Source of the DNA: Trueperaceae bacterium
GTDB taxonomy: Bacteria; Deinococcota; Deinococci; Deinococcales; Trueperaceae
NCBI GenBank assembly: GCA_035703635.1
Contig: DASSXV010000035.1
Coordinates: 1 to 37,104, forward strand
Direction: 5' to 3'
DNA length: 37,104 nt
Shown here: one piece after another, positions 3,342 to 14,407 of the stretch
How the letters are laid out: each line of letters opens with the position of its first letter
Numbering within the stretch: position 1 is the first letter of the stretch
Translations under genes and position numbers: made by a program
The notes under the pieces: model-generated
What the model saw: the letters and a program-made list of their open reading frames with translations, nothing else
Databases searched by the model: none
What the model was told of the DNA's origin: nothing

Positions 3342-5369
<2,028 letters not shown>

Positions 5370-5387
5370 GTCGCAGCCACCCTGGCC

Positions 5388-6512
5388 TTAGGAAGCGCTG
5401 ATCGGCGCCTCGAACCCATCGCCCTCGTGGGCCACGAACGCCGCTATGAAGGTGTCGTACGAGGTTGACTTGTCGCTCTGCTGCCTGATGTCGCCCTCGG
5501 CGAACGCGGCTTGGAAGGTTCGCAGCACCTCGGGGTCGAAGTGCGTGCCGCTGCCTTCGTCCAGCAACTGCAGCGCTTCCTCGACGGGCATCGGCCGGCG
5601 GTAAGGCCTTTCGCTTGTGATCGCCTCGAACACGTCGGCCACCGCGATGATGCGGCCGAACAACGGGATCTCGCTGCCGACCAACCTCCGCGGGTAACCC
5701 GTGCCGTCCCACTTCTCGTGGTGAGAGTAGACGCCCGCGCCTATCTGCAAGAACGCGTCAGACACGGAAACCAAGATGTCGCGGCCGAGGCGGGCGTGGT
5801 GACGCATGACCGCGAACTCCTCGTCAGTCAACGGCCCTGGCTTGCGCAAGATGGCCTCAGGCACGCCGATCTTGCCCAGGTCGTGGAGCAGCCCGGACCA
5901 GTAGAGCTGGTTGAGGTCGTCCTCCGCCAAACCGAGCCTGCGTCCGATGGTGACGGCGTTCTCGGCGACGCGCTCGCAGTGGCCCGAAGTTCCTTCGTCG
6001 CGCTGCGCGACCATGCCTGCGAACAGCCGCAGGTTCCGCGAGTAGGTCTGCGACAGCGAGGCCTGCAGCCGCTCAGAGCGGGCCAACCGCACGCGCAGGA
6101 GCGATGCGGCCGCCCCGATGATCACGCCAGTGAACGCGAACAGCAGCAGCCGGAACAACCACGTCGCCGTCGGCTGCCGTAAGGCCTCAGCTGTGTCCAA
6201 CGCCGTGAACGGCCCGACGAGCAGGCCCGCAGTCACGCCAGCTACCAGGCCGCCGCCCGTGCCGTAAAGGAACGCGGACGCAGCGATCGTCACGTACATG
6301 AGGTGAAGGGCCGAGTGCTGCGTGCCACCCGTAGCCAGCACGAGCGCCGCGATCGCCAACTGCGTGGCGACGAGACCCGCCGTAAGCACCAACCTCCAGG
6401 CCGGGCGCGGCGACCACAACGTGTCCGCAAACCAACCGATCCGCCGGGCAACGGGCCCCTCTAACAGCCCCCCGGCTGCCGGTGACACCGGGATAGTCGG
6501 TGAAGTCCTCAT
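5388..6512 (-). CDS. HD-GYP domain protein with N-terminal membrane domain (probable cyclic dinucleotide phosphodiesterase)
   Basis: HCERV, LLHDLGKIG, HHEKWDGTGYP, ADVFEAITSERPY, HFDP; 4 hydrophobic segments at the N-terminus. Confidence 0.9.
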   Translation of the reverse strand: MRTSPTIPVSPAAGGLLEGPVARRIGWFADTLWSPRPAWRLVLTAGLVATQLAIAALVLATGGTQHSALHLMYVTIAASAFLYGTGGGLVAGVTAGLLVGPFTALDTAEALRQPTATWLFRLLLFAFTGVIIGAAASLLRVRLARSERLQASLSQTYSRNLRLFAGMVAQRDEGTSGHCERVAENAVTIGRRLGLAEDDLNQLYWSGLLHDLGKIGVPEAILRKPGPLTDEEFAVMRHHARLGRDILVSVSDAFLQIGAGVYSHHEKWDGTGYPRRLVGSEIPLFGRIIAVADVFEAITSERPYRRPMPVEEALQLLDEGSGTHFDPEVLRTFQAAFAEGDIRQQSDKSTSYDTFIAAFVAHEGDGFEAPISAS

Positions 6513-6712
6513 AGCCCTCCAACGACGGCGCGCGCGGTCTCAACCCCCTGAACGTGCGCGGCGCCTAGCTTGGATTGTCGGCCGTTGGCGGAGAAGTCGA
6601 AGCTAGGGTTCTCACATCGGTGGGGTTCTGCCTACTCCCCCTAGGCTGCAGCCAACTTCCCCGACACCTCGAAGGTCCCCCTCGCCTAGTCTCACTCCAG
6701 GAGGAGACCGGC

Positions 6713-7318
6713 GTGCACGAAGCGACCAAACAACCCGTTGCTAGCGGCATCCGCTCCTGTGGTCAGGCTCTTGTTAGGCGCTGGGCAGCGCCGCTTTCGC
6801 TCTGCATACTGCTTGCCGGCTCCGTAGTTGCCGCCCCCGCCTACCTCGGCGCCCGCGCCAGTCGGGCCTGGAACGCCACCCCGTTCAGCGTCTCGTCCGT
6901 GCCCGTCGTGCTGCAAGCGGCGCGTAACGACTGCGGACCCGCCGCTCTGGCCGCCCTCCTCATCTGGGCAGACCGGGCAACACCGTTGGCGACCATCACG
7001 TCTGCAGCACGCCTTGGGCCAGACGGCATCAGCCTGGGCGAGTTCGCTCGCGTTGCCGAGGCGTTCGGGCTGCCGGGCGCTTGGTACCACCTTGAGGCCG
7101 ATCGCTTAACGACGGTCGGAACTCCGTTCGTTGCTCACGTAACAGCCGCTACCGGCACGCCAGGCGCTTCGCAACTCGGCCACCTGGTCGTCGTGTGGGC
7201 TGCCGGCGGCGGCGCGGTGCTCCTCTCCGACCCGGCCGTCGGCGCCAGCGTCGTGCCGCTCGCCGAGTTCGCGCGCCGTTACACGGGTAGGGCGTACCTC
7301 TTGGGGACCGACTCATGA
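6713..7318 (+). CDS. Stand-alone C39-family cysteine peptidase with N-terminal signal/anchor
   Basis: Q-x4-DCGPAAL (catalytic Cys), GISLGEF, GHLVVV (His), DPAVG, EFARRYTG. Hydrophobic N-terminal stretch. AGGAGG RBS before GTG 6713. No ABC domains. Confidence 0.85.
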   Translation: MHEATKQPVASGIRSCGQALVRRWAAPLSLCILLAGSVVAAPAYLGARASRAWNATPFSVSSVPVVLQAARNDCGPAALAALLIWADRATPLATITSAARLGPDGISLGEFARVAEAFGLPGAWYHLEADRLTTVGTPFVAHVTAATGTPGASQLGHLVVVWAAGGGAVLLSDPAVGASVVPLAEFARRYTGRAYLLGTDS

Positions 7319-8814
7319 CCCGCTCCTTCACTGCGGGCCTGGTCAGCGCCACGCTGTTGGCCGTCGCTACGCGCCCTTGGGGCCTGGCGTTCCTTGCGTG
7401 GGTGGCGTTAGTGCCTGCCTTCCTAGCAATGTGCCTAGCCGCTTGGCGCAACCGCGGGGCGCTGATCGCGGGCACAACGGGCTTCATCGCCGCCATCGGC
7501 TTCACGTCCGTGGCGTACGAGGCCGTCCTCGGCCTCTCCCTAACGGCTTACGTTGCCGTGGTCCTCGGCGCCGCGGTGCCTTTCGGCTTGACGGCTGCCG
7601 CTGCTACTTGGGCCGTTAGGCGCCTCGGTTCTGGCAGCGCCTTGTTGGCCTACCCAGCGTTCTGGTGCGCGGCCGAGGTGTTCGTGCGCCAAGAGTGGCT
7701 GCTCGGCCGCTGGAGTTTGCAGCTCTCGGCCATCGGCTACACGCAGTCAGGCAGCGCCGCCGTGCACCTCGCGCGCTTCAGCTCCGTCACCGCCGTCAGC
7801 CTCGCCATCTTGGTGGTTAACGGCGCGCTGGCCACGTGGCTGCAAGGCTCGGGGCGTCATCGCGGCGCTTTCGGGCTGGCCGTCGTGGCGCTAGCCGTGT
7901 GGCTGGCGTGGCGCACCGCTCCGCCGCTACACACTGGCGGCACGCCTGACGCCCTCACGCGCGTTAGCGTGCTGCAGCCTGGCCTGCCAGCAGCGGCGCG
8001 CGGCGCGGCTCTGCACCACCCTGGAGTCGCTAGCGAGTTGCTGGCCCACTTGGCGGAGTTGAGCACGCCGGCCGGGGGAGAGAGGCAAGGACCCGCCACG
8101 CCGCTCGAGCCCGCACTCGAGATCTGGCCCGAGGCCGTATGGCCCGGCCGGTTGCGGCACGCAGGCACGCTGTCTGCGCCGGTTTCACCCCTCGTAGCAG
8201 GGCAACTGGCGAACCGTCCCCCGATTCTGCTTGGCGCCGCCAGCCATCACACTTTCACCGGCGCAGCTAGCAACGCGGCGTTCACCCTGACAGGCACGAC
8301 CCTCACGCATGTATTCGACAAGCGGCACCCAGTTCCCCTTGCTGAGGATGGCCTCGCAAGGTCCACCGGTCCGGTGGTCGTGAGCCTGGGCGGGGTACTA
8401 GTGGCGCCGCTCATCTGTTACGACGTTGCCTTCCCGGCCACGGTGCGCGCAGCTGCGCGCACCGGAGCGGAGTTGCTCGCCGTTCTCACGGACGACACTT
8501 TCGCCGCCGGAAGCGACGTTCCTCTTCAACACCTACGCGTGGCGCAGCTCCGCGCGGTCGAGAGCGGCATGTGGTTGGCCTTCGCCTCCAATGGCGGACC
8601 AAGTGCCCTCATCGACCCAGCCGGGCGGCTCGCGGTCCTCTCCGGGCTCGGAGAGACCGTGGTGCTGAGCGCCATGACGAGGCTAGGGACCGGCTCGACC
8701 CCGTACTTGACTTACGGGGACTGGGTCGGGGTGCTCGCCTGCCTGGCTAGTGCGGGCATGGCGGGCGTTGCGGGGCTAAAGGGGGGTGCAAGTCGGTTAC
8801 CGCAGCCAACCTGA
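7315..8814 (+). CDS. lnt: Apolipoprotein N-acyltransferase (Lnt)-family protein, divergent
   Basis: Multi-TM N-terminus plus nitrilase fold with E-K-C triad: IWPE, DKRHPVPLAE, ICYD. Also RAVESG and TPYLTYGDW. ATGA overlap with the C39 gene. Confidence 0.82.
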   Translation: MTRSFTAGLVSATLLAVATRPWGLAFLAWVALVPAFLAMCLAAWRNRGALIAGTTGFIAAIGFTSVAYEAVLGLSLTAYVAVVLGAAVPFGLTAAAATWAVRRLGSGSALLAYPAFWCAAEVFVRQEWLLGRWSLQLSAIGYTQSGSAAVHLARFSSVTAVSLAILVVNGALATWLQGSGRHRGAFGLAVVALAVWLAWRTAPPLHTGGTPDALTRVSVLQPGLPAAARGAALHHPGVASELLAHLAELSTPAGGERQGPATPLEPALEIWPEAVWPGRLRHAGTLSAPVSPLVAGQLANRPPILLGAASHHTFTGAASNAAFTLTGTTLTHVFDKRHPVPLAEDGLARSTGPVVVSLGGVLVAPLICYDVAFPATVRAAARTGAELLAVLTDDTFAAGSDVPLQHLRVAQLRAVESGMWLAFASNGGPSALIDPAGRLAVLSGLGETVVLSAMTRLGTGSTPYLTYGDWVGVLACLASAGMAGVAGLKGGASRLPQPT

Positions 8815-8842
8815 AGCCCCTCGCTACCCGATCGGAGTAACC

Positions 8843-9463
8843 ATGCTCGGAGTACCAGTGAAACGCCTCGCCCTATGGACCGTAAGCACCTTCTTGCTCA
8901 TGCTCCTCGCCAGCCCCGTCCAGTCGGCAACCGCAGCAGCCGACCTCGCGCCAGTCGGTGCACTCGAGCTCGTGAACGTCACGGCGGGCATCTGCCTCAA
9001 CTGCCCGCCAGAACAGCCGGCCGACCCCAAGCCGCCCAAGCCACCCAAGCTCACGGGCTACGTGTGGGAGCTCACCAGCTCCAAGCACTACGCCCCAACT
9101 CAGCTCAGTTACGCGCTCGCACGGGAATACGTCAACTCGTCCACCATGAACGTCAATTACACCTTCACCTACAGCGACGAGTGCACGCACGTCCTCACAA
9201 GCGGCGGCATCGGCATCTCCTCCTCCCTTAACCTCTCGGTCGGCACCGTGTACAAGTGCGCTGCACAGGACACCATGGAGATATCCGTTGCTCCCCGCAC
9301 ACGCGTGAAGCTCTACCGCGGCGCAATGCGCCAACTCGCCACCTACGTGGCCCACGAACTAGCCGTATACAGCGACGGATCGACCTCCCGCACCGGCCGT
9401 TCCGACAGCGGCACGACCGAAACCCGCTACTACCGCTACAACACCATTTCCAACCCACTCTAG
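8843..9463 (+). CDS. Secreted protein: signal peptide, double-glycine-like leader and Ser/Thr-rich beta domain (putative C39 substrate)
   Basis: GGAG RBS and ATG at 8843. Signal peptide MLGVPVKRLALWTVSTFLLMLLASPVQS, then LAPVGALELVNVTAG, ICLNC, a Pro/Lys linker and a beta-rich domain; 206 aa. Confidence 0.7.
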   Translation: MLGVPVKRLALWTVSTFLLMLLASPVQSATAAADLAPVGALELVNVTAGICLNCPPEQPADPKPPKPPKLTGYVWELTSSKHYAPTQLSYALAREYVNSSTMNVNYTFTYSDECTHVLTSGGIGISSSLNLSVGTVYKCAAQDTMEISVAPRTRVKLYRGAMRQLATYVAHELAVYSDGSTSRTGRSDSGTTETRYYRYNTISNPL

Positions 9464-9473
9464 GCACGACAAC

Positions 9474-9504
9474 GGTGGTGGGCCTAACCTAAAGGCCCAC
9501 CACC
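9474..9504 (+). other. Intergenic stem-loop (12-bp perfect stem, no U-tract)
   Basis: GGTGGTGGGCCT-aacctaa-AGGCCCACCACC, 10 nt after the 9463 stop. Confidence 0.7.
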
Positions 9505-9526
9505 CCCGATGCTCGGAAGGAGAGAC

Positions 9527-10417
9527 ATGCGCGAGCTCCCCAACGCCGCACACCGCCGTAGGCCAGTCCCGCGGACGCTCCTCAAGTGGGTGGCGGTCAG
9601 CGCCATTTGCGCCCTGACGACCACGGCACTTGCCGCCACGCCGCTGGTCGGCATTCACTACCAGGACCTCGAACCCGGCTCTACCGGCGAGATAACCATC
9701 GTCTTGCCGAACCCTGGGCTGGCGGACCCAACAGGCTTCGCGGCCACCTCCCACGACGCCTGCCTCAGCGTCGGCGACCTTTACAACACCCGCTTCGACA
9801 TCTGGCGCCTACCGGCAACCCTGTTAGGTGGGGAGGCGTGCCATGCCACCGTCACCGTCAGCGCACAGAGTAGTGCTGGCGAGTGGAGTGGCCTACTGTT
9901 CATCACGCTCAACCCCGTCACAGACGCCGCGCCCTTGGACCCCGACGCTGGGCTGACCCTCCGTTACGGCTCACGCACACCGTGGCTCGAAGTAACCGAA
10001 ACTCAGGCCCCGTACGCCTACGCGCAGCACGCGACCACCATCGCCGAGTTCACCTTCGAGAACGGCGCGGCGGCGCCCATCGCGATCATGAGCTTGAGCG
10101 TCGACCCCGACCGCCTAGCATCGTTGAGCCCCACGTTCTCACTTCATCAAGCGGGCGGCACGGTCGCTTACCAGCCCGTCTCGCCCGCTAGGTTCCCGCA
10201 GATTCGAGCCGCTCGAGGCGAGGGACTGGCTAGCCTTCAACCAGGCGGCACCGCGACCCTAGCCGTGGCCGTCGGAGCGGAGGCCGGACGGGGCAGCGAA
10301 CGCCTGGCAATCACGCTTGGCCTGCTACCGATCGTGCAGCTAGCCGGTGAGCACTACTACCTAACTGGAGCGGTGGCCACCTACTACTTCGAAGGCCAAG
10401 CGCATGGCACCCCTTGA
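9527..10417 (+). CDS. Hypothetical exported protein, beta-rich/Ig-like
   Basis: AAGGAG RBS before ATG 9527. Basic n-region (HRRRP), hydrophobic core and ALA cleavage motif. FENGAAAPIAI and LQPGGTATL are typical of Ig-like sandwiches. Confidence 0.6.
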   Translation: MRELPNAAHRRRPVPRTLLKWVAVSAICALTTTALAATPLVGIHYQDLEPGSTGEITIVLPNPGLADPTGFAATSHDACLSVGDLYNTRFDIWRLPATLLGGEACHATVTVSAQSSAGEWSGLLFITLNPVTDAAPLDPDAGLTLRYGSRTPWLEVTETQAPYAYAQHATTIAEFTFENGAAAPIAIMSLSVDPDRLASLSPTFSLHQAGGTVAYQPVSPARFPQIRAARGEGLASLQPGGTATLAVAVGAEAGRGSERLAITLGLLPIVQLAGEHYYLTGAVATYYFEGQAHGTP

Positions 10418-11861
10418 CGGGGCCCGGTGGGCGCTGCGCGCTTGCCTGCGCATGGGCGCCAGAGCTGGAACGCGCTTCACGCTCTGCACGCTCCTCGCTA
10501 TGGCCGCAGCACAAACCGGTTCTCCGGCTGCTGCGTCAACACCAGGCGCCGCGCTCAGCCCCTTCGGGACGTTGTTGGCGCTGTTCGACTCCGCCTACGC
10601 CCCGTCAGCCGCACTGAAAGCCGAGGCCGCCGCCCTGGCGGGTATGGCTCGAGACGCCTCGCTCGCCCAACTGCCCTCCTTCTCCGCCACCGAAAGGCTG
10701 GCGTGGCACGACTACGGCGCTCTCGGGATAAGCCTCGAACTCGCCGCCGAGCTACCCATCTACCGCTCACTTGCAGCGCCAACCGCTGCCATGCAGGCTC
10801 ACCGCGAGGCCACCCAGGCCTCCCGCGCAGCCGCGGCCGCGGCTGCCGCTCGCGCGCAATTCGTCCTGACGGTCCTGGCACTGGCGCTCACTCAGGAGCT
10901 CGAGCATGAAGCCACCGCGGCCACCGCCAGGTTCGCTGCGGAGGTCTGGCAGCCGCCAACCAACCTGGCCGACGCCCTGCACGTCGCCCCGTCAGAGCGC
11001 GAGCTGCTAGCGCTCTACCGCAGCGTCGTGAACCTCGCCGAGTTCGCAGCGGGCAACGCTGCCGAACTGCGCCGCGAACTAACGCGCACGCTCGGCACCT
11101 CCGTTACGGACTTGCCGCTACCGAAGTTCGCCGCAGCCATCGCGGCACTCGACATGGCGCCGCCCACGCTCGACTCCTGCCTCGCCACCGGACCCGAAGC
11201 TAGCGCAGCGCGCCAACGCTTCGAACAACGCCTGCTCGGGTTGACGCTCGAGCGCACGACCGAGCTAGAGGTGAACCTCTTCGGGCAAGTCGGCTACCAA
11301 GGAGGGTTCGGGGCCGGCGCGACCGGTGTGGCGCCTTCGGTAGCTGGACTTCAAGCACAACTTGGGGTCGCAGTGCGCCTGGCCATGCCGGATGGGTGGC
11401 CCGTGTCCGGCGAGGTCGGCGCTACGGCGCACCTCGGCGGCGCAGAGCAGACTCTCTCGCTGAGTTGGCCGCCGGTAAGGCGAAACGCGCACTCATTAGG
11501 TCACGCCGCGGCACTGGAAGACGCCAGCGGCGTGTTGGCGGCGGAGCTCGCGCAACTGACTTCCGAAGCAAGCACCCAGCTGCGCGCCTACGCGGACGCC
11601 ACAGCAGCCGTCGAAAACGCGGAGGCGCAGCTCTTGTGGCTCGCCTTTGACGTTCACCCAGACGCGCTCGACCTAGACTCCGCCAGAACTCTGGCCAGCC
11701 GTACGTTCGACAACCCAGTGCTCGAGCTCCACGCCGTGAGCTACCGCGCCGACGTCGCCTTCGCGCAGCTCACCCTTGCAACGCAGTTGGCTGACCTACA
11801 AGTCCTCTGCGGCGTCGGCGCGCTAGGCACGGTGCGCGCAGGCGAGGTCGCGCTGCCATGA
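10404..11861 (+). CDS. TolC/outer-membrane efflux-like protein (divergent)
   Basis: Signal-like N-terminus. Twice-repeated pattern of long Ala/Leu/Glu helices followed by amphipathic beta pairs (LPSFSATERL...GISLELAAELPIY; LEVNLFGQVGY...LQAQLGVAVRLAMP). True start may be 10452. Confidence 0.55.
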   Translation: MAPLDGARWALRACLRMGARAGTRFTLCTLLAMAAAQTGSPAAASTPGAALSPFGTLLALFDSAYAPSAALKAEAAALAGMARDASLAQLPSFSATERLAWHDYGALGISLELAAELPIYRSLAAPTAAMQAHREATQASRAAAAAAAARAQFVLTVLALALTQELEHEATAATARFAAEVWQPPTNLADALHVAPSERELLALYRSVVNLAEFAAGNAAELRRELTRTLGTSVTDLPLPKFAAAIAALDMAPPTLDSCLATGPEASAARQRFEQRLLGLTLERTTELEVNLFGQVGYQGGFGAGATGVAPSVAGLQAQLGVAVRLAMPDGWPVSGEVGATAHLGGAEQTLSLSWPPVRRNAHSLGHAAALEDASGVLAAELAQLTSEASTQLRAYADATAAVENAEAQLLWLAFDVHPDALDLDSARTLASRTFDNPVLELHAVSYRADVAFAQLTLATQLADLQVLCGVGALGTVRAGEVALP

Positions 11862-12931
11862 GGCGCCCTCAGGGCGCGCGGTTCGGTGAGTTCGCGCCCG
11901 CTTGCCGGGTCGTGGGTGGCGCTGCGCTCGCAATCGTCGTCGGCTTCGCGCTGCTTGCCTTCTCTGAGCTGTGGGTTGGCTCCGCCACGCTGCCGCGGTG
12001 GCTCCCGCCGCCGCCGTACTGGGTCGGCCGCACCCTGCATGGCCTGCCGTTCGCCAAGTCCGCCCCCTGGAAGTTAGTGCGCTACAAGCTAGTCGGAGTG
12101 TCTCTCCAGGCCACCGCGCTGCCCCCCTGGTCGGACGCGCACACGCCGGCACAAGCAGCGTTGAGCGCTGGCAGCTATCTCGGTTGGACCAGCGCTACCG
12201 GCGGAAGCCTCACGTTCTACGGTCACGCCTGCACGCCAGCTGACCCCGTGGCCGCCCTCACCCTGCGCGGGACCAGGGAGGACGTCGAGTTCACGGGCGC
12301 CGCCCTCATCACGGCTGACGCCGACCCTGACGTCGGCTACTCCCTACCGACTACCCGCCTCACGGGCCCGCTGCCGATTGGTGACCTGGGTTCAACGGCT
12401 CTCGCACGCTGCCGCTCGGGCGCCGAGGCGCTCCATCAACTTGGGGCCGTGCGGGTTGCCGAAGCGCCAGGCAACCCAGCCAACCTGCAAGTGCACCTCT
12501 CCACATGGCCCGCGGCGGGGGTGTACGCCGAGCTCGTCGTCGTGAACCCTGGCCCCGCCAGCCTAGTCGTCACAGGCGTCGAGTATGCCCCCGCCCAAGC
12601 CGCCACCGGCAGGGTGCGCGTGATGACTGGCCCCGCCGTCCAGCCGCCCGCGCTGAGCGGAACACCTAGCGCGGCACAAGTGAACGAGTTCCAGCGCGCC
12701 AAACGCGCGCTCGTAACTAGCGGCAACCTGCCCGTTGACAACGCTGACGCGCTCTCGATCGTGCTGCGATCATCCGAGGCCGCCTTGATCGTCATCGACC
12801 AGGGCTCGTTTCACCCGACGCGGCCACAACTGCCAGCATTCTTCTACCCAGTCGTCTCATATGAGAGCCCCAGCGGTGCCGGAGCCGCACTAGTATCCGA
12901 TCGGTTCGCTGTGGGCTGGACCTGGCAGTAG
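11858..12931 (+). CDS. Hypothetical membrane-anchored protein with a C-terminal Ig-like domain
   Basis: ATGA overlap with the upstream gene; one N-terminal TM helix; VVNPGPASLVVTGVEY motif. Confidence 0.6.
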   Translation: MRRPQGARFGEFAPACRVVGGAALAIVVGFALLAFSELWVGSATLPRWLPPPPYWVGRTLHGLPFAKSAPWKLVRYKLVGVSLQATALPPWSDAHTPAQAALSAGSYLGWTSATGGSLTFYGHACTPADPVAALTLRGTREDVEFTGAALITADADPDVGYSLPTTRLTGPLPIGDLGSTALARCRSGAEALHQLGAVRVAEAPGNPANLQVHLSTWPAAGVYAELVVVNPGPASLVVTGVEYAPAQAATGRVRVMTGPAVQPPALSGTPSAAQVNEFQRAKRALVTSGNLPVDNADALSIVLRSSEAALIVIDQGSFHPTRPQLPAFFYPVVSYESPSGAGAALVSDRFAVGWTWQ

Positions 12932-12993
12932 TCCCACGGCAGCGTCCCTCGGAACCGCCTGCAAGCCACGGCTCGGAAGCTGGGCGCGGGCTG

Positions 12994-13002
12994 TGCTACA
13001 CT
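12994..13002 (+). promoter_or_regulatory. Extended -10 promoter candidate for the rpsF operon
   Basis: TGcTACACT, about 185 nt upstream of the rpsF start. Confidence 0.5.
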
Positions 13003-13187
13003 CCTTATTTGCCGCGCGTTAGTCTGGCTAGTCCAACGATGCGTGGTGGCGAGCCGATGCTGGGGAAGGTGAGCGCAGGCCGGAGGTCGGCCTGGCGCGT
13101 CGTGTCGCTCCGAACGCAGCCGCGTGTGGAGAGCACAGCGCGCGTCTCTCACGAGACCGAGTGCCACCAGCCTGGAAGGAGGTGCAC

Positions 13188-13538
13188 ATGTCAAACACCA
13201 CCAAGTACGATCTCAACGTCATCCTTGACCCGAGCCTTAGCGAACAGCAGGTCCAGTCGGAGAAAGACGCCGTTGCGCTCCAAGTCGAGCGCGCGGGAGG
13301 TGAGATCCTCTCTGTCGACGAGTGGGGAATGCGCCGTCTGGCGTACCCGATCCGCAAAGGCAACGAGGGCTACTTTCTCATCTATCGCCTACACCTGAGC
13401 GGCGAAAGCCCCAAGACCATCGAAGCTGCGTTACGCCAACGCGATAACGTCATGCGAGTCCTGGTCGTCCGGGAACGCCCGGAGTGGAAGACGAAGAAAG
13501 AACCGAAGGTCGAAGGCAAGGCCGAGGCCGCTGCCTAA
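13188..13538 (+). CDS. rpsF: 30S ribosomal protein S6
   Basis: KYDLNVILDP, WGMRRLAYPIRKGNEGYF, NVMRVLVV; AAGGAGG RBS; first gene of rpsF-ssb-rpsR-rplI. Confidence 0.97.
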   Translation: MSNTTKYDLNVILDPSLSEQQVQSEKDAVALQVERAGGEILSVDEWGMRRLAYPIRKGNEGYFLIYRLHLSGESPKTIEAALRQRDNVMRVLVVRERPEWKTKKEPKVEGKAEAAA

Positions 13539-13576
13539 GCCAAGAATCTATTGACGAGCGGTTGGGGAGTCATCTC

Positions 13577-14407
13577 ATGGCACGTGGTTTGAACAACGTT
13601 TACCTTGTCGGCACGCTGGTTCAGAAACCAGATCTGCGCTACACCCCCGGTGGGTTAGCCATCTTGGAGATGAACTTGGCGGGCAATGACAACGTCATGG
13701 GAGATGACGACCAACCTCGCGAGTTGGCCTGGTACCACCGCGCAACGCTCTTCGGGGCGCAAGCGGAGATGATGGCCGACCAACTGCAAGAGGGCACCGC
13801 CGTGTTCGTCGAGGGACGCCTCAACTACCGCACCTGGGATGCCCAGGACGGCCAGAGGCGCTCAGCTCTCGACGTGAACGCGCAACGCGTTGACGTGGTC
13901 ACCCCGGGCGTACGCTCGGGCGAAGCCACCGTGATCGACGCGCGTGGCCAGCACCGGCTCAAGAACGCGCTCAATCAGGTGCTCATAGTAGGCAACCTGA
14001 CACGCGACGCCGAGATGCGCTCAACGCCCTCAGGGGCGTCCGTCACGCGCTTCGGAGTGGCGGTCAACGAGCGTTTTCGGGGCAAAGGCGGAGACGATCA
14101 GGAGCGCACTCACTTCGTGGACGTCACCGTGTGGCGCGAACTCGCGGAAGGTTGCGAGGCTCTTCGCAAAGGCGACGGTGTGTTCGTGATCGGCAGGCTC
14201 GTCAATGATTCTTGGACCGACAAGGAAGGTAACCGTCGGTTCACGACGCGGTTAGAAGGACAACGCGTCGAGTTCCTCTCTCGCGGTCCCGGCAGCGGTG
14301 GAGCCGGAACCCGTACGGAGCGCACCGTCGCTACCGGCGCCCAGGCGAGTTCGTCGAAGTTGGATATCGACGAAGAGTTTCCACCAGAAGAGGACCTACC
14401 CTTCTAG
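13577..14407 (+). CDS. ssb: Single-stranded DNA-binding protein, Deinococcus-Thermus two-OB-fold type
   Basis: MARGLNNVYLVG...PDLRYTPGG and a second OB fold LNQVLIVGNLTRDAEMRSTPSG; C-terminal EEDLPF. Confidence 0.97.
   Translation: MARGLNNVYLVGTLVQKPDLRYTPGGLAILEMNLAGNDNVMGDDDQPRELAWYHRATLFGAQAEMMADQLQEGTAVFVEGRLNYRTWDAQDGQRRSALDVNAQRVDVVTPGVRSGEATVIDARGQHRLKNALNQVLIVGNLTRDAEMRSTPSGASVTRFGVAVNERFRGKGGDDQERTHFVDVTVWRELAEGCEALRKGDGVFVIGRLVNDSWTDKEGNRRFTTRLEGQRVEFLSRGPGSGGAGTRTERTVATGAQASSSKLDIDEEFPPEEDLPF

What the first reader, a model, noticed from the sequence alone, without database searches (positions are those of the whole stretch)
7315..8814. Lnt paralog with an intact triad in a cluster lacking a canonical lipobox substrate
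Seen: the E-K-C triad is retained but flanking motifs have drifted (KRHPVPLAE vs KxxLVPFGE, ICYD vs ICYE, TDDTFA vs NDAWF), and the gene is translationally coupled to the C39 gene. I find no clean [LVI][ASTVI][GAS]C lipobox ending a signal peptide in the cluster. Inference: it may N-acylate the C39-generated N-terminus, a route to lipidated proteins independent of Lgt and LspA.
Basis: partly seen in the sequence, partly recalled or inferred. Interest (0 to 1): 0.7.

Follow-up and report, generated by a model that had tools for sequence, protein, structure and literature searches.

The report
Lid-less Lnt paired with C39 protease
A second, divergent copy of the lipoprotein acyltransferase Lnt sits in a conserved gene cluster with a membrane-anchored C39 protease and a secreted aerolysin-like protein that carries a double-glycine leader; it is predicted to fatty-acylate that protein after the protease cuts it, which would be a new route to lipidated proteins.

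Summary
ORF 7315-8814 is an Lnt-family protein with the E273-K336-C368 triad and the drifted motifs quoted. It overlaps the upstream C39 gene by ATGA, and no cluster protein has a lipobox. The genome also has a canonical lnt, lgt and lspA, so this gene ("LntP") is a paralog. In a tree of 50 Lnt-family rows (one long-branch row left out), LntP-type genes split from housekeeping Lnt with 100% support. They lack the roughly 25-residue helix plus lid loop that closes the E. coli Lnt active site.

In 201 genomes of the order, 36 carry LntP, and 35 of those have a stand-alone C39(-like) gene directly upstream. All 22 genomes with the cargo family carry LntP; none of the 165 without LntP has it.

The cargo (8843-9463) has a signal peptide, an ELxx[VI]x[AG]G double-glycine motif whose E and final G are invariant across 21 aligned sequences, a linker, and a domain modelled as an aerolysin-type pore-former fold. 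A TolC-like gene follows.

Best reading (inferred): Sec export, C39 cleavage after [AG]G, then acylation of the new N-terminus by a lid-less Lnt. The acylation itself is untested. I found no description of this pairing in print.

The parts
6713..7318 (+). Stand-alone, N-terminally membrane-anchored C39 cysteine peptidase, 201 aa from GTG 6713 (the longest ORF starts at TTG 6575). It has a basic N-terminus, one TM segment (residues 28-46) and then the C39 domain.
   Evidence: PF03412, 61.3 bits. GGAGGAG lies upstream of GTG 6713, and orthologs start at the equivalent place behind AAGGAGG. Gln/Cys(NDCGPA)/His(GHLVVV)/Asp(DP) are present in 9 of 11 aligned homologs, the window's included.
7315..8814 (+). 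LntP: an Lnt-family paralog with a polytopic membrane domain plus a periplasmic CN-hydrolase domain. It keeps the catalytic residues but lacks the helix alpha5-6 and lid-loop segment.
   Evidence: It forms a separate clade from housekeeping Lnt (100* SH-aLRT).
8131..8133 (+). Codon of E273, the catalytic Glu in WPE.
   Evidence: Invariant in alignment A3; string confirmed.
8320..8346 (+). Codons of K336-E344 (KRHPVPLAE): the catalytic Lys and the 'fourth catalytic residue' Glu. Directly after this segment, housekeeping Lnts carry about 25 further residues that LntP lacks.
   Evidence: Alignment A3. The roles of E. coli K335, E343, loop-5, alpha5-6 and the lid loop come from PMC5500890 passages.
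8416..8418 (+). Codon of C368, the catalytic Cys in ICYD.
   Evidence: Invariant in A3.
8843..9463 (+). Cargo, 206 aa from ATG 8843 (the start consistent with orthologs may be GTG 8861). It comprises a signal peptide, a double-glycine-type leader, a CxxC, a Pro/acidic linker and an aerolysin-like beta domain (residues ~67-206).
   Evidence: AF2 model: mean pLDDT 82; the 10-residue blocks from residue 71 on average 90-97. Foldseek gave 23 PDB hits at E<=1e-3; every one of those shown is an aerolysin/ETX-MTX2-type pore former or lectin-PFT. VIA-align Z 8.3.
8966..8989 (+). Codons of ELVNVTAG (cargo residues 42-49): the predicted C39 recognition and cleavage motif, with cleavage predicted after G49.
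   Evidence: E42 and G49 are invariant, and L43 and A48 nearly so, in 21 cargo homologs. The motif was located at 8966.
9509..10417 (+). Secreted beta-rich protein (302 aa), probably two beta-sandwich domains. Its role is unknown (immunity- or chaperone-like by position).
   Evidence: No Pfam or NCBIfam hit. Atlas gives only weak Ig-like leads below 0.9. AF2 pLDDT 63, with no Foldseek hit at E<=1e-3. Orthologs were found in 3 of the 8 related g1/g6 loci searched by tblastn (L020, L021, L026).
10404..11861 (+). TolC / outer-membrane-factor-like protein (485 aa).
   Evidence: The nearest Atlas feature clusters score 0.97-0.98 and are 'outer membrane efflux protein' / TP096X_N / OEP. The ortholog in the sister family reaches Pfam OEP at 22.9 bits against a cut-off of 22. 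The window protein itself has no Pfam hit.
11858..12931 (+). Membrane-anchored protein (357 aa), unknown family, seen only in this genus's version of the cluster.
   Evidence: One TM segment at residues 18-36. No family or PDB match. Orthologs occur in 6 related loci.

Best explanation
The gene at 7315-8814 is a distinct, lid-less branch of the Lnt acyltransferase family that is almost always encoded next to a stand-alone membrane-anchored C39 peptidase; together they are predicted to mature the neighbouring secreted aerolysin-like protein. Shown here: the paralogy, the retained catalytic residues, the loss of the lid segment, the near-obligate C39-LntP gene pair, its co-occurrence with a cargo family that carries a conserved double-glycine-type motif behind a signal peptide, and the cargo's modelled aerolysin-type fold. 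Inferred: (1) the cargo is exported by Sec. (2) The C39 domain, facing the periplasm, likely cuts after the [AG]G of ELxx[VI]x[AG]G, removing the signal peptide and leader and exposing a new alpha-amine ([ILVAGTF]-C-x-x-C in this family, poly-Gly in the sister family). (3) LntP would load an acyl chain from a membrane phospholipid onto C368, as Lnt does. Because its active site is not closed by a lid, it would pass that chain to the new N-terminus of a non-lipidated, periplasmic protein. (4) The acylated pore-former module has a flexible linker but no receptor-binding domain, so it would use the lipid as its membrane anchor. The TolC-like protein and accessory proteins (an Ig-like protein here, a Skp/OmpH-like one in the sister family) would handle export, and possibly self-protection. 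The polymorphic cargo domains behind one shared leader suggest a bacteriocin-like competition role.
For: Paralogy:
- The genome has a canonical lnt (269.5 bits), lgt (186 bits) and lspA (128.4 bits) elsewhere.
- All 41 related genomes searched have a housekeeping lnt.

Separate clade:
- 17 versus 34 rows are split with 100* support.
- With the long-branch row L066 left out, the split is 16 versus 34, again 100*.

Catalytic residues and lid:
- E273, K336, E344 and C368 are invariant.
- The paralog clade lacks about 25 residues directly after VPxxE. In E. coli Lnt this stretch is helix alpha5-6 plus the amphipathic lid loop, which makes the cavity accessible only from the membrane. F357A/F358A is inactive (PMC5500890 passages).
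- The position of E. coli F416, essential there, is an invariant Ala in LntP.

Gene pairing, in one sample of 201 genomes of the order:
- LntP-type genes occur in 36 genomes.
- 35 of those 36 have a stand-alone C39(-like) gene immediately upstream. At gene level this is 38 of 40 LntP genes.
- 37 of the 38 stand-alone C39 matches at E<=2e-29 lie next to an LntP gene.
- The own genome has no other C39 match at E<=1e-8.

Cargo:
- It is found in 22 of 201 genomes. All 22 are LntP-positive, and 0 of the 165 LntP-negative genomes has it.
- In 20 of the 22 it lies on the same contig within 5 kb of LntP.
- The leader motif is present in 9 of 9 orthologs, and E42 and G49 are invariant in 21 sequences.
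- Of 10 LntP-positive loci examined (nine from genomes without a cargo hit, plus G129 with only a marginal hit at E 6.8e-6), 7 have a gene downstream of LntP with [ED/Q][LV]xx[VIF]x[AG]G followed by (x)CxxC.
- In the sister family, different mature domains share one leader.
- The C39 catalytic Gln/Cys/His/Asp are intact.
- The cargo layout of leader, flexible linker and globular domain resembles a lipoprotein tether.

Fold: Foldseek top hit E 5.7e-6, 23 hits at E<=1e-3; VIA-align Z 8.3 over 132 residues.

Operon: gene overlaps of ATGA at 7315 and at 11858, a 14-bp overlap at 10404, and no terminator-like site on the + strand.
Against: - No experiment or mass-spectrometry data exist. Cleavage, acylation and the acylated atom are all inferred.
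- Classical double-glycine leaders are cleaved by cytoplasmic C39 domains of ABC exporters, not behind a Sec signal peptide. The periplasmic topology of this C39 rests only on hydropathy and the positive-inside rule.
- The residue after the predicted cut is not conserved (I/L/V/A/G/T/F, Cys, or Gly runs). In this family the conserved element is the CxxC, which might itself be the target.
- Two LntP copies sit beside C39-like proteins that lack the catalytic Cys and His. A third (G022:C33) and G200 have no C39 match at all. Cleavage by the partner therefore cannot be universal.
- 3 of the 10 extra loci showed no leader-bearing gene downstream.
- The aerolysin assignment rests on a predicted model. 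There is no Pfam match, and the Z of about 8 is in a range the tool calls common.
- RNA-library contigs cover the cluster only at word depth of about 0-10, against 287-456 for rpsF next door in run X17. That depth could be residual DNA.
Confidence: 0.42

Rival explanations
1. LntP does acylate the cargo, but not at the alpha-amine. It would instead modify a Cys thiol of the conserved CxxC just after the cleavage site (an S-acyl group, possibly followed by an S-to-N shift where Cys is N-terminal) or a Lys side chain, as toxin-activating acyltransferases do for RTX toxins.
For: (x)CxxC directly follows the [AG]G in the Trueperaceae-type cargos. In two lineages Cys is itself the first residue after GG (G023; G045). 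The residue at +1 is otherwise variable. Lnt chemistry proceeds through a thioester on the enzyme (PMC5500890 passages).
Against: Sister-family cargos have Gly runs after the motif, and their Cys pair lies 20-30 residues further on. Every characterised Lnt reaction transfers to an alpha-amine (recalled, plus the PMC5500890 abstract). The two Cys may simply form a disulfide.
Confidence: 0.15
2. LntP works in the same system but not on the cargo protein. It could remodel envelope lipids (for example, hydrolyse or transfer acyl chains to make lyso-lipids or N-acyl lipids that protect the producer or help release the pore former). Alternatively, it could act mainly as a membrane scaffold or receptor for the C39(-like) protein.
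For: Some LntP copies pair with catalytically dead C39-like proteins, or sit next to pseudopilin-type genes instead of a recognisable cargo. That suggests a role not tied to cleavage. Loss of the lid could also turn the enzyme toward hydrolysis. The variable gene after the cargo is only guessed to be an immunity gene.
Against: All four catalytic residues are invariant across the clade, which argues against a pure scaffold. The strict co-occurrence and adjacency with a leader-bearing cargo is most simply explained by the cargo being the substrate.
Confidence: 0.2
3. LntP is just a redundant or specialised housekeeping Lnt that N-acylates ordinary Lgt/LspA-processed lipoproteins, and its position next to the C39 gene has no mechanistic meaning.
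For: It passes the NCBIfam lnt equivalog cut-off (135.6 against 132.9 bits) and would be annotated as apolipoprotein N-acyltransferase, as one database member already is. Second Lnt copies are known in actinobacteria (search listing and abstract of PMC3850990).
Against: It forms a separate clade with 100* support. It has lost the lid segment and the essential F416 position. 38 of 40 genes are paired with C39(-like) genes. It is absent from the 165 genomes that lack the system, all of which still need lipoprotein maturation. No lipobox protein is present in this cluster.
Confidence: 0.05

Closest known systems
Apolipoprotein N-acyltransferase Lnt (E. coli / P. aeruginosa; PDB 5n6h, 5n6m, 5xhq)
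   Same: Same architecture: LNT_N membrane domain plus a periplasmic CN-hydrolase domain. The Glu-Lys-Cys triad and the extra Glu of loop-5 are retained, as is the Tyr after the catalytic Cys.
   Different: It is a separate clade from the genome's own housekeeping Lnt. It lacks helix alpha5-6 and the lid loop, and has an 11-residue shorter loop in the membrane domain. NDAWF becomes D(D/S)xFA, with Ala at the F416 position, and E389 becomes Asp. It is paired with a C39 gene and a cargo without a lipobox.
C39 peptidase domains of bacteriocin ABC exporters (PCATs: ComA, LagD, NHLP-type) and their double-glycine leaders
   Same: Pfam PF03412 with Gln/Cys/His/Asp. The best NCBIfam resemblance is to the peptidase domain of NHLM_micro_ABC1. 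The cargo motif ELxx[VI]x[AG]G resembles the recalled consensus LSxxELxxIxGG.
   Different: It is stand-alone (about 200 aa) with one TM anchor, and no ABC transporter is in the cluster or fused to it. The leader sits behind a Sec-type signal peptide, so cleavage would take place outside the cytoplasm. The ABC-fused C39 domains found in other families of the order are not next to LntP.
FapD, the stand-alone C39 peptidase of the Fap functional-amyloid operon
   Same: A small C39 protein that is not fused to a transporter and is encoded with secreted cargo and an outer-membrane component (recalled). There is a weak NCBIfam hit to C39_FapD (E 0.034, 13.4 bits against a cut-off of 330).
   Different: It is far below the family cut-off, so it is not a FapD ortholog. 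There are no Fap amyloid genes, and the Fap system has no Lnt-like partner (recalled).
RTX toxin activation and export (HlyC acyltransferase, HlyA, HlyB with its inactive C39-like domain, HlyD, TolC)
   Same: Functional analogy only: a pore-forming protein, a dedicated acyltransferase, a C39(-like) domain and a TolC-type outer-membrane protein are encoded together (components recalled; cluster parts).
   Different: The protein families are unrelated (Lnt-type against TAAT-type acyltransferase; aerolysin-like against RTX). Here the predicted route is Sec export and periplasmic processing, rather than cytoplasmic Lys acylation and one-step type 1 secretion.
Aerolysin / ETX-MTX2 beta-pore-forming proteins (Dln1 4znq, Bombina aerolysin-like protein 6lhz, epsilon toxin 1uyj, parasporin-2 2ztb)
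   Same: The predicted fold of cargo residues ~67-206 matches their pore-forming module. A Ser/Thr/Gly-rich stretch with alternating hydrophobic residues (115-138) between invariant C114 and C139 looks like a pre-stem loop. Activation by proteolysis is typical of the family (recalled).
   Different: No sequence-family match. It is only about 140 residues, with no receptor-binding domain. It has an N-terminal leader with a double-glycine motif and is encoded with an Lnt-like gene.
RiPP-lipoprotein hybrids (DAG-RiPPs) that co-opt Lgt/LspA/Lnt
   Same: A specialised secreted product is lipidated by Lnt-family chemistry (bioRxiv 10.1101/2025.10.31.685832, passages read).
   Different: Those precursors carry a canonical lipobox and use the housekeeping pathway. 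Here there is no lipobox, and the cluster has a dedicated, divergent Lnt plus a C39 peptidase.

Membership tests
Lnt (apolipoprotein N-acyltransferase; TIGR00546, PF20154 + PF00795) | Polytopic N-terminal membrane domain followed by a CN-hydrolase domain and a C-terminal TM helix | tested here: met
   PF20154 at residues 11-171 and PF00795 at 322-456. Hydrophobic segments, including 470-488, match the pattern of the housekeeping copy.
Lnt (apolipoprotein N-acyltransferase; TIGR00546, PF20154 + PF00795) | Catalytic Glu-Lys-Cys triad plus the loop-5 Glu (E. coli E267, K335, C387, E343) | tested here: met
   E273, K336, C368 and E344 are invariant in 19 aligned sequences. Roles are taken from PMC5500890.
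Lnt (apolipoprotein N-acyltransferase; TIGR00546, PF20154 + PF00795) | Curated equivalog score cut-off | tested here: met
   135.6 against 132.9 bits, and 143.9 in the genome search. This is marginal; the housekeeping copy scores 269.5.
Lnt (apolipoprotein N-acyltransferase; TIGR00546, PF20154 + PF00795) | Helix alpha5-6 and the amphipathic lid loop (E. coli ~348-370), which close the cavity so that substrates enter from the membrane; F357/F358 are essential | tested here: not met
   About 25 residues are missing directly after VPLAED in all 12 LntP-clade sequences and present in all 7 housekeeping sequences aligned. Function is taken from PMC5500890 passages.
Lnt (apolipoprotein N-acyltransferase; TIGR00546, PF20154 + PF00795) | NDAWF motif with the essential F416 | tested here: not met
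   The motif is TDDTFAA. The F416 position is an Ala that is invariant in the clade.
Lnt (apolipoprotein N-acyltransferase; TIGR00546, PF20154 + PF00795) | Orthology with housekeeping Lnt | tested here: not met
   It falls in a separate clade with 100* SH-aLRT support. A housekeeping copy is present in 41 of 41 genomes.
Lnt (apolipoprotein N-acyltransferase; TIGR00546, PF20154 + PF00795) | N-acylation of S-diacylglyceryl-Cys apolipoproteins | not testable with these tools
   This needs complementation or an enzyme assay.
Peptidase C39 (PF03412) | Pfam score over the cut-off and catalytic Gln, Cys, His, Asp | tested here: met
   61.3 against 22 bits. Q/C/H/D are present in 9 of 11 partners, the window's included; 2 of 11 are degenerate.
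Peptidase C39 (PF03412) | N-terminal domain of an ABC exporter (PCAT) | tested here: not met
   It is a stand-alone protein of about 200 aa with one TM segment. The NCBIfam PCAT models are matched only over their peptidase part and far below their cut-offs.
Peptidase C39 (PF03412) | Substrate with a double-glycine-type leader | tested here: met
   ELxx[VI]x[AG]G is present in the adjacent cargo: 9 of 9 orthologs, with E42 and G49 invariant in 21 sequences. Actual cleavage was not tested.
Aerolysin / ETX-MTX2 beta-pore-forming proteins (cargo) | Elongated beta fold of the pore-forming module | tested here: met
   This rests on a predicted model (mean pLDDT 82; 10-residue blocks from residue 71 on average 90-97). 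Foldseek E 5.7e-6, with 23 hits at E<=1e-3; every one of those shown is from this fold class. VIA-align Z 8.3, 132 residues aligned, rmsd 4.2.
Aerolysin / ETX-MTX2 beta-pore-forming proteins (cargo) | Sequence-family membership (Pfam aerolysin or ETX_MTX2) | tested here: not met
   No Pfam hit at E<=1. None of the 19 database homologs has a Pfam domain.
Aerolysin / ETX-MTX2 beta-pore-forming proteins (cargo) | Amphipathic pre-stem loop and pore formation | tested here: inconclusive
   The stretch THVLTSGGIGISSSLNLSVGTVYK between invariant C114 and C139 alternates hydrophobic and small polar residues. Pore formation was not tested.
TolC / outer membrane factor (OEP, PF02321), for the 10404 gene | Pfam OEP match | tested here: inconclusive
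   The window protein has no hit. The sister-family ortholog scores 22.9 against a cut-off of 22. Atlas feature similarity to OEP/TP096X clusters is 0.97-0.98. A profile search of the PDB found nothing relevant.

The most novel reading that the evidence does not exclude
A third kind of bacterial protein lipidation: Sec export, removal of a double-glycine leader by a periplasmic C39 protease, then N-acylation of an ordinary (non-diacylglyceryl, non-Cys) N-terminus by a lid-less Lnt. The system arms a minimal aerolysin-type pore former with a fatty-acid anchor in place of a receptor-binding domain. The leader is a portable tag that can send different toxin domains through the same machinery.
Probability: 0.33. 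Interest if true: 0.85.

Novelty: new variant of a known kind. Interest (0 to 1): 0.7.

Why it matters
All known Lnt enzymes finish the Lgt-LspA lipoprotein pathway and need a diacylglyceryl-Cys acceptor that arrives through the membrane. This branch has lost the lid that enforces that route. It is also genetically tied to a protease that creates a fresh N-terminus on a lipobox-free protein. If it acylates that N-terminus, it would extend what Lnt chemistry can do and define a lipidation route independent of Lgt and LspA.

It would also give a compact, leader-directed way to lipidate proteins, and it would show how a very small aerolysin-type module can find membranes. Annotation pipelines would label these genes as plain 'apolipoprotein N-acyltransferase', as one database member already is, so the system is currently invisible in genome annotation.

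Tried and rejected
- **Complex prediction (LntP plus C39, alignments A4 and A5).** It was never run. The queue was full, and the calls between them were not sent on. No statement about binding is made.
- **The search for related loci on genome contigs.** Genomes outside this order were therefore not scanned for the gene pair.
- **Wide protein search with the LntP profile.** It found 32 clade members at E<=5.7e-113, then a drop to ordinary Lnts. The seven examined (P0053-P0059) all keep an insert after the VP.GE motif. None of the 71 hits carries PF03412, so no C39-Lnt fusion was seen. Only the 7999 candidates sharing most words were scored.
- **Profile searches of the PDB with the three downstream proteins.** Nothing relevant was found.
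- **The 9509 protein.** The AF2 model is poor (pLDDT 63) and has no Foldseek hit at E<=1e-3. Atlas gave only weak Ig-like leads.
- **Relaxed leader regex over the own genome.** It gave 33 hits, mostly membrane proteins, so it does not discriminate. The strict regex with Cys gave the cargo plus one unrelated hit inside a 1009-aa frame.
- **Cargo search of the order.** It missed the G023 cargo that one search had found, so those counts are lower bounds.
- **RNA-library contigs of four runs from two studies.** They cover 17-28 of 30 bins of 5300-13600 at low depth. Single contigs bridge the LntP/cargo, cargo/9509, 9509/10404 and 10404/11858 junctions. Contigs cannot show strand or a single transcript, and DNA carry-over is possible, so I do not count this as evidence of expression.
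- **Literature searches** ('apolipoprotein N-acyltransferase'+C39; Lnt+double-glycine+lipoprotein; aerolysin+'C39 peptidase'; Lnt paralog terms; Trueperaceae terms; 'peptidase C39'/Lnt/'N-terminal acylation' terms). None returned a description of a C39-Lnt pair. Supplements were not searched.
- **The search of earlier findings.** It returned nothing.
- **Lipobox reading of TAG-I-C.** Rejected: the -1 position is not G/A/S, and the motif lies about 20 residues past the hydrophobic core.


Full report
**What is at the coordinates.** ORF 7315-8814 (+) encodes a 499-aa protein with an Lnt N-terminal membrane domain (PF20154, residues 11-171) and a carbon-nitrogen hydrolase domain (PF00795, residues 322-456). 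It just passes the NCBIfam lnt equivalog model, at 135.6 bits against a cut-off of 132.9. Its best solved relatives are the P. aeruginosa and E. coli Lnt structures, matched over the C-terminal half only. The upstream ORF is a Peptidase_C39 protein (61.3 bits), and its stop overlaps the LntP start as ATGA at 7315-7318. None of the six proteins of the cluster contains a lipobox by a strict or a loose pattern.

**It is a paralog, and a distinct one.** The same genome has a far better lnt on contig C56 (269.5 bits, against 143.9 for the window gene), with the canonical motifs WPEGAV, YDKRFLVPFGER, VCYES and TNDAWFG. It also has lgt (186 bits) and lspA (128.4 bits), so the ordinary lipoprotein pathway is complete without the window gene. 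All 41 related genomes searched have a housekeeping-type lnt.

A maximum-likelihood tree of 51 Lnt-family sequences from these genomes splits 17 rows from 34 housekeeping rows with 100% SH-aLRT support. The 17 are 14 genes next to a C39 gene, two further extra copies and one long-branch row. Without the long-branch row the split is 16 against 34, again at 100%. I call the window's branch LntP.

**What changed in LntP.** I aligned 12 LntP and 7 housekeeping sequences. The catalytic Glu, Lys and Cys (E273, K336, C368) and the loop-5 Glu (E344) are invariant. All LntP sequences lack about 25 residues directly after VPxxE, and about 11 residues in an early membrane-domain loop. NDAWF is replaced by D(D/S)xFA, with an invariant Ala where E. 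coli has F416.

According to the E. coli structure paper (PMC5500890, passages read), the segment after loop-5 is helix alpha5-6 plus an amphipathic lid loop. [quoted passage not shown] F357A/F358A is inactive and F416 is essential. LntP therefore keeps the chemistry but has lost the element that restricts acceptors to membrane-embedded lipoproteins. That the cavity is consequently open to the periplasm is my inference.

**The partner protease.** From its likely start (GTG 6713, behind GGAGGAG; orthologs start at the same place) the C39 protein is 201 aa. It has a basic N-terminus, one hydrophobic segment and then the peptidase domain. By the positive-inside rule the domain should face the periplasm. 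Gln, Cys (NDCGPA), His (GHLVVV) and Asp (DP) are present in 9 of 11 aligned partners. Two extra copies, in G012 and G040, have Gly and Arg in place of Cys and His, so they are degenerate C39-like proteins. It is not fused to an ABC transporter. The own genome has no other C39 match at E<=1e-8.

**The cargo.** The next gene (8843-9463) encodes four parts in order:
- a hydrophobic signal peptide;
- the motif ELVNVTAG;
- ICLNC followed by a Pro/acidic linker;
- a beta-rich domain of about 140 residues.

All nine orthologs from related genomes have L..ELxx[VI]T[AG]G followed by xCxxC. In an alignment of 21 family members, E42 and G49 are invariant and L43 and A48 nearly so, while the flanking signal-peptide end and the linker vary. 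This is the pattern of a double-glycine leader (consensus recalled), but placed behind a Sec-type signal.

The family is small: 19 database proteins, none with a Pfam domain or an informative name. An AlphaFold2 model built from the alignment has mean pLDDT 82, and the 10-residue blocks from residue 71 on average 90-97. Foldseek against the PDB gives 23 hits at E<=1e-3. Every one of those shown is an aerolysin/ETX-MTX2-type pore former or a related lectin-PFT (top hit Dln1, E 5.7e-6). VIA-align gives Z 8.3 (132 residues, rmsd 4.2) to the Dln1 aerolysin module and Z 8.1 to the 152-residue Bombina aerolysin-like protein, covering model residues 67-206. The tool warns that Z near 8 can be common, so the uniformity of the hit list is the stronger argument. 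A Ser/Thr/Gly-rich stretch with alternating hydrophobic residues, between invariant C114 and C139, looks like a pre-stem loop. The cargo has no receptor-binding domain.

**The rest of the operon.** The genes are packed tightly. C39 and LntP overlap by ATGA, there is a 28-bp gap before the cargo, and the later junctions overlap at 10404 and 11858. No terminator-like site lies on the + strand.
- The 9509 product is a secreted, beta-rich protein of unknown family.
- The 10404 product resembles TolC-type outer-membrane factors by Atlas features (0.97-0.98). Its ortholog in the sister family reaches the Pfam OEP cut-off (22.9 against 22 bits).
- The 11858 product is a membrane-anchored protein found only in this genus's version of the cluster.
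- In the sister family the order is cargo, small variable protein, TolC-like, Skp/OmpH-like (40.7 bits), C39, LntP.

**Comparative genomics.** Within the genus the whole cluster sits between a P-type ATPase gene and rpsF. One protein-cluster member is named as coming from a Trueperaceae bacterium. The two-OB-fold SSB at 13484-14407 fits Deinococcota (the association is recalled).

I searched one sample of 201 genomes of the order three times.

| Element searched | Threshold | All genomes | Window's family | Sister family | Other three families |
|---|---|---|---|---|---|
| LntP-type gene | E<=1e-60 with the clade profile (no housekeeping Lnt reaches this) | 36 of 201 | 28 of 53 | 7 of 19 | 0 of 128 |
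| Cargo family | E<=1e-3 | 22 of 201 | 16 of 53 | 5 of 19 | 0 of 128 |
| C39 (any type) | E<=1e-8 | 54 of 201 | 28 of 53 | 10 of 19 | 15 of 128 |

The totals include the window's own genome; the family columns do not.

- Thirty-five of the 36 LntP-positive genomes have a stand-alone C39(-like) gene immediately upstream of LntP. At gene level this is 38 of 40 genes; the exceptions are G022:C33 and G200.
- Thirty-seven of the 38 stand-alone C39 matches at E<=2e-29 lie next to an LntP gene. The weaker C39 matches lie mostly in frames of about 700 aa, the length of ABC exporters, and are located elsewhere.
- All 22 cargo-positive genomes are LntP-positive, and none of the 165 LntP-negative genomes has the cargo.
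- In 20 of the 22 the cargo lies within 5 kb of LntP on the same contig. The other two are fragmented assemblies.
- These genomes are related, so the counts describe a conserved module rather than independent events.

**The leader is the constant element.** I examined ten further LntP-positive loci: nine from genomes without a cargo hit, plus G129, which has only a marginal hit (E 6.8e-6). Seven have a gene just downstream of LntP with [ED/Q][LV]xx[VIF]x[AG]G followed by (x)CxxC. Examples are ELTAVHGG-TCGSSC, DLATVTGG-TCTTC and DVQATFAGG-CGAGC. Three showed none.

In G023 the cargo (ELVTVLGG-CWSDC), a 278-aa protein and the TolC-like gene lie on a different contig from C39-LntP. In the sister family, several proteins share one signal-plus-leader (…ELKSEFGAGGGG…) but have different Cys-rich mature domains. 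Each is followed by a different small protein, one of them a lipobox lipoprotein. That layout recalls polymorphic toxin and immunity pairs, but this is an analogy, not a test.

**Mechanism.**
- Shown: the gene pair, its tie to a leader-bearing cargo, the intact catalytic residues in both enzymes, the missing lid, and the cargo's predicted fold.
- Inferred: Sec export; C39 cleavage after [AG]G at the outer face of the inner membrane; acyl transfer by LntP from a phospholipid, through C368, to the new alpha-amine; use of the acyl chain as the membrane anchor of a receptor-less pore-former module; and export or handling by the TolC-like and accessory proteins.
- I put about 0.42 on this chain as a whole. 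The functional coupling of the three genes is much more secure than the identity of the acylated atom.

**Rivals.**
- Acylation at the conserved CxxC or at a Lys (0.15).
- A lipid-directed or scaffold role within the same system (0.2). The degenerate C39-like partners, and one copy that is followed by pseudopilin-type genes, point this way.
- An ordinary second Lnt (0.05). The clade split, the lid loss and the pairing all argue against this.

**Known systems and novelty.** LntP works like Lnt in chemistry but fails three Lnt membership features: the lid, the F416 motif and orthology. The C39 protein is a true C39 peptidase but not a PCAT domain. Its nearest stand-alone analogue, FapD, is matched only at 13.4 bits against a cut-off of 330. 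The combination of an acyltransferase, a C39(-like) domain, a TolC-type protein and a pore former is a functional echo of RTX toxin systems, built from unrelated parts (recalled). RiPP-lipoprotein hybrids use the housekeeping pathway and a lipobox. Seven full-text searches found no description of a C39-Lnt pairing, and supplements were not searched. I rate it a new variant of a known kind, with a realistic chance of being a new lipidation route.

**Limits.**
- No complex prediction could be run.
- No scan outside this order was possible for the gene pair.
- Topology and signal peptides rest on hydropathy alone.
- RNA-library contigs cover the cluster only thinly, which does not establish expression.

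Noticed in passing
window 5388-6512 (-): An HD-GYP (HD_5) domain gene lies between the P-type ATPase gene and the C39 gene only in this genome. In the five related loci with the same ATPase neighbour (L020, L021, L022, L026, L027) the ATPase gene is followed directly by C39.
   Followed up: partly
L028 (G012:C7) 11356-13364; L034 (G040:C72) 8103-10015: Extra LntP copies are paired with C39-like proteins that have lost the catalytic Cys and His (Gly and Arg instead). This suggests the C39 fold can serve LntP as a non-catalytic partner.
   Followed up: partly
L033 (G022:C33) 3745-9215 (-): A further LntP copy with no detectable C39 neighbour is followed by three genes. Two of their N-termini look like prepilin-type cleavage/methylation signals (…MTLLELIIVMAIL…, …GLTLVEMLVALAIL…).
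   Followed up: no
L074 6469-7934 (G028); L075 2031-3454 (G080): Sister-family genomes carry alternative cargos with the same signal-plus-leader but different Cys-rich mature domains. Each is followed by a different small protein, one with a canonical LITSC lipobox. This is a polymorphic toxin/immunity-like layout.
   Followed up: partly
window 13484-14407 (+): An SSB with two OB-fold domains (PF00436, two stretches, plus SSB_1), the form I recall as typical of Deinococcus-Thermus. rpsF and rplI flank it.
   Followed up: no
G195:C55, G125:C3 (LntP); G032:C52, G099:C298, G080:C581, G071:C268 (C39): The genome searches report one in-frame TGA inside the open frames of two LntP matches and four C39 matches. 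Whether these are upstream read-through of the frame, sequencing errors or broken genes was not examined.
   Followed up: no
window 13056-13600: In RNA-library contigs, rpsF is covered at word depth 287-456 (X17) and about 61 (X20). The cluster next to it lies at about 0-10, so the system, if transcribed at all in those sludge samples, is at low level.
   Followed up: partly
G023, versus 83: The same cargo profile found a match in G023 (E 1.6e-7) when five genomes were searched by handle, but none in the 201-genome search. The first-look filter of the genome search is therefore not fully reproducible, and negative counts are lower bounds.
   Followed up: no
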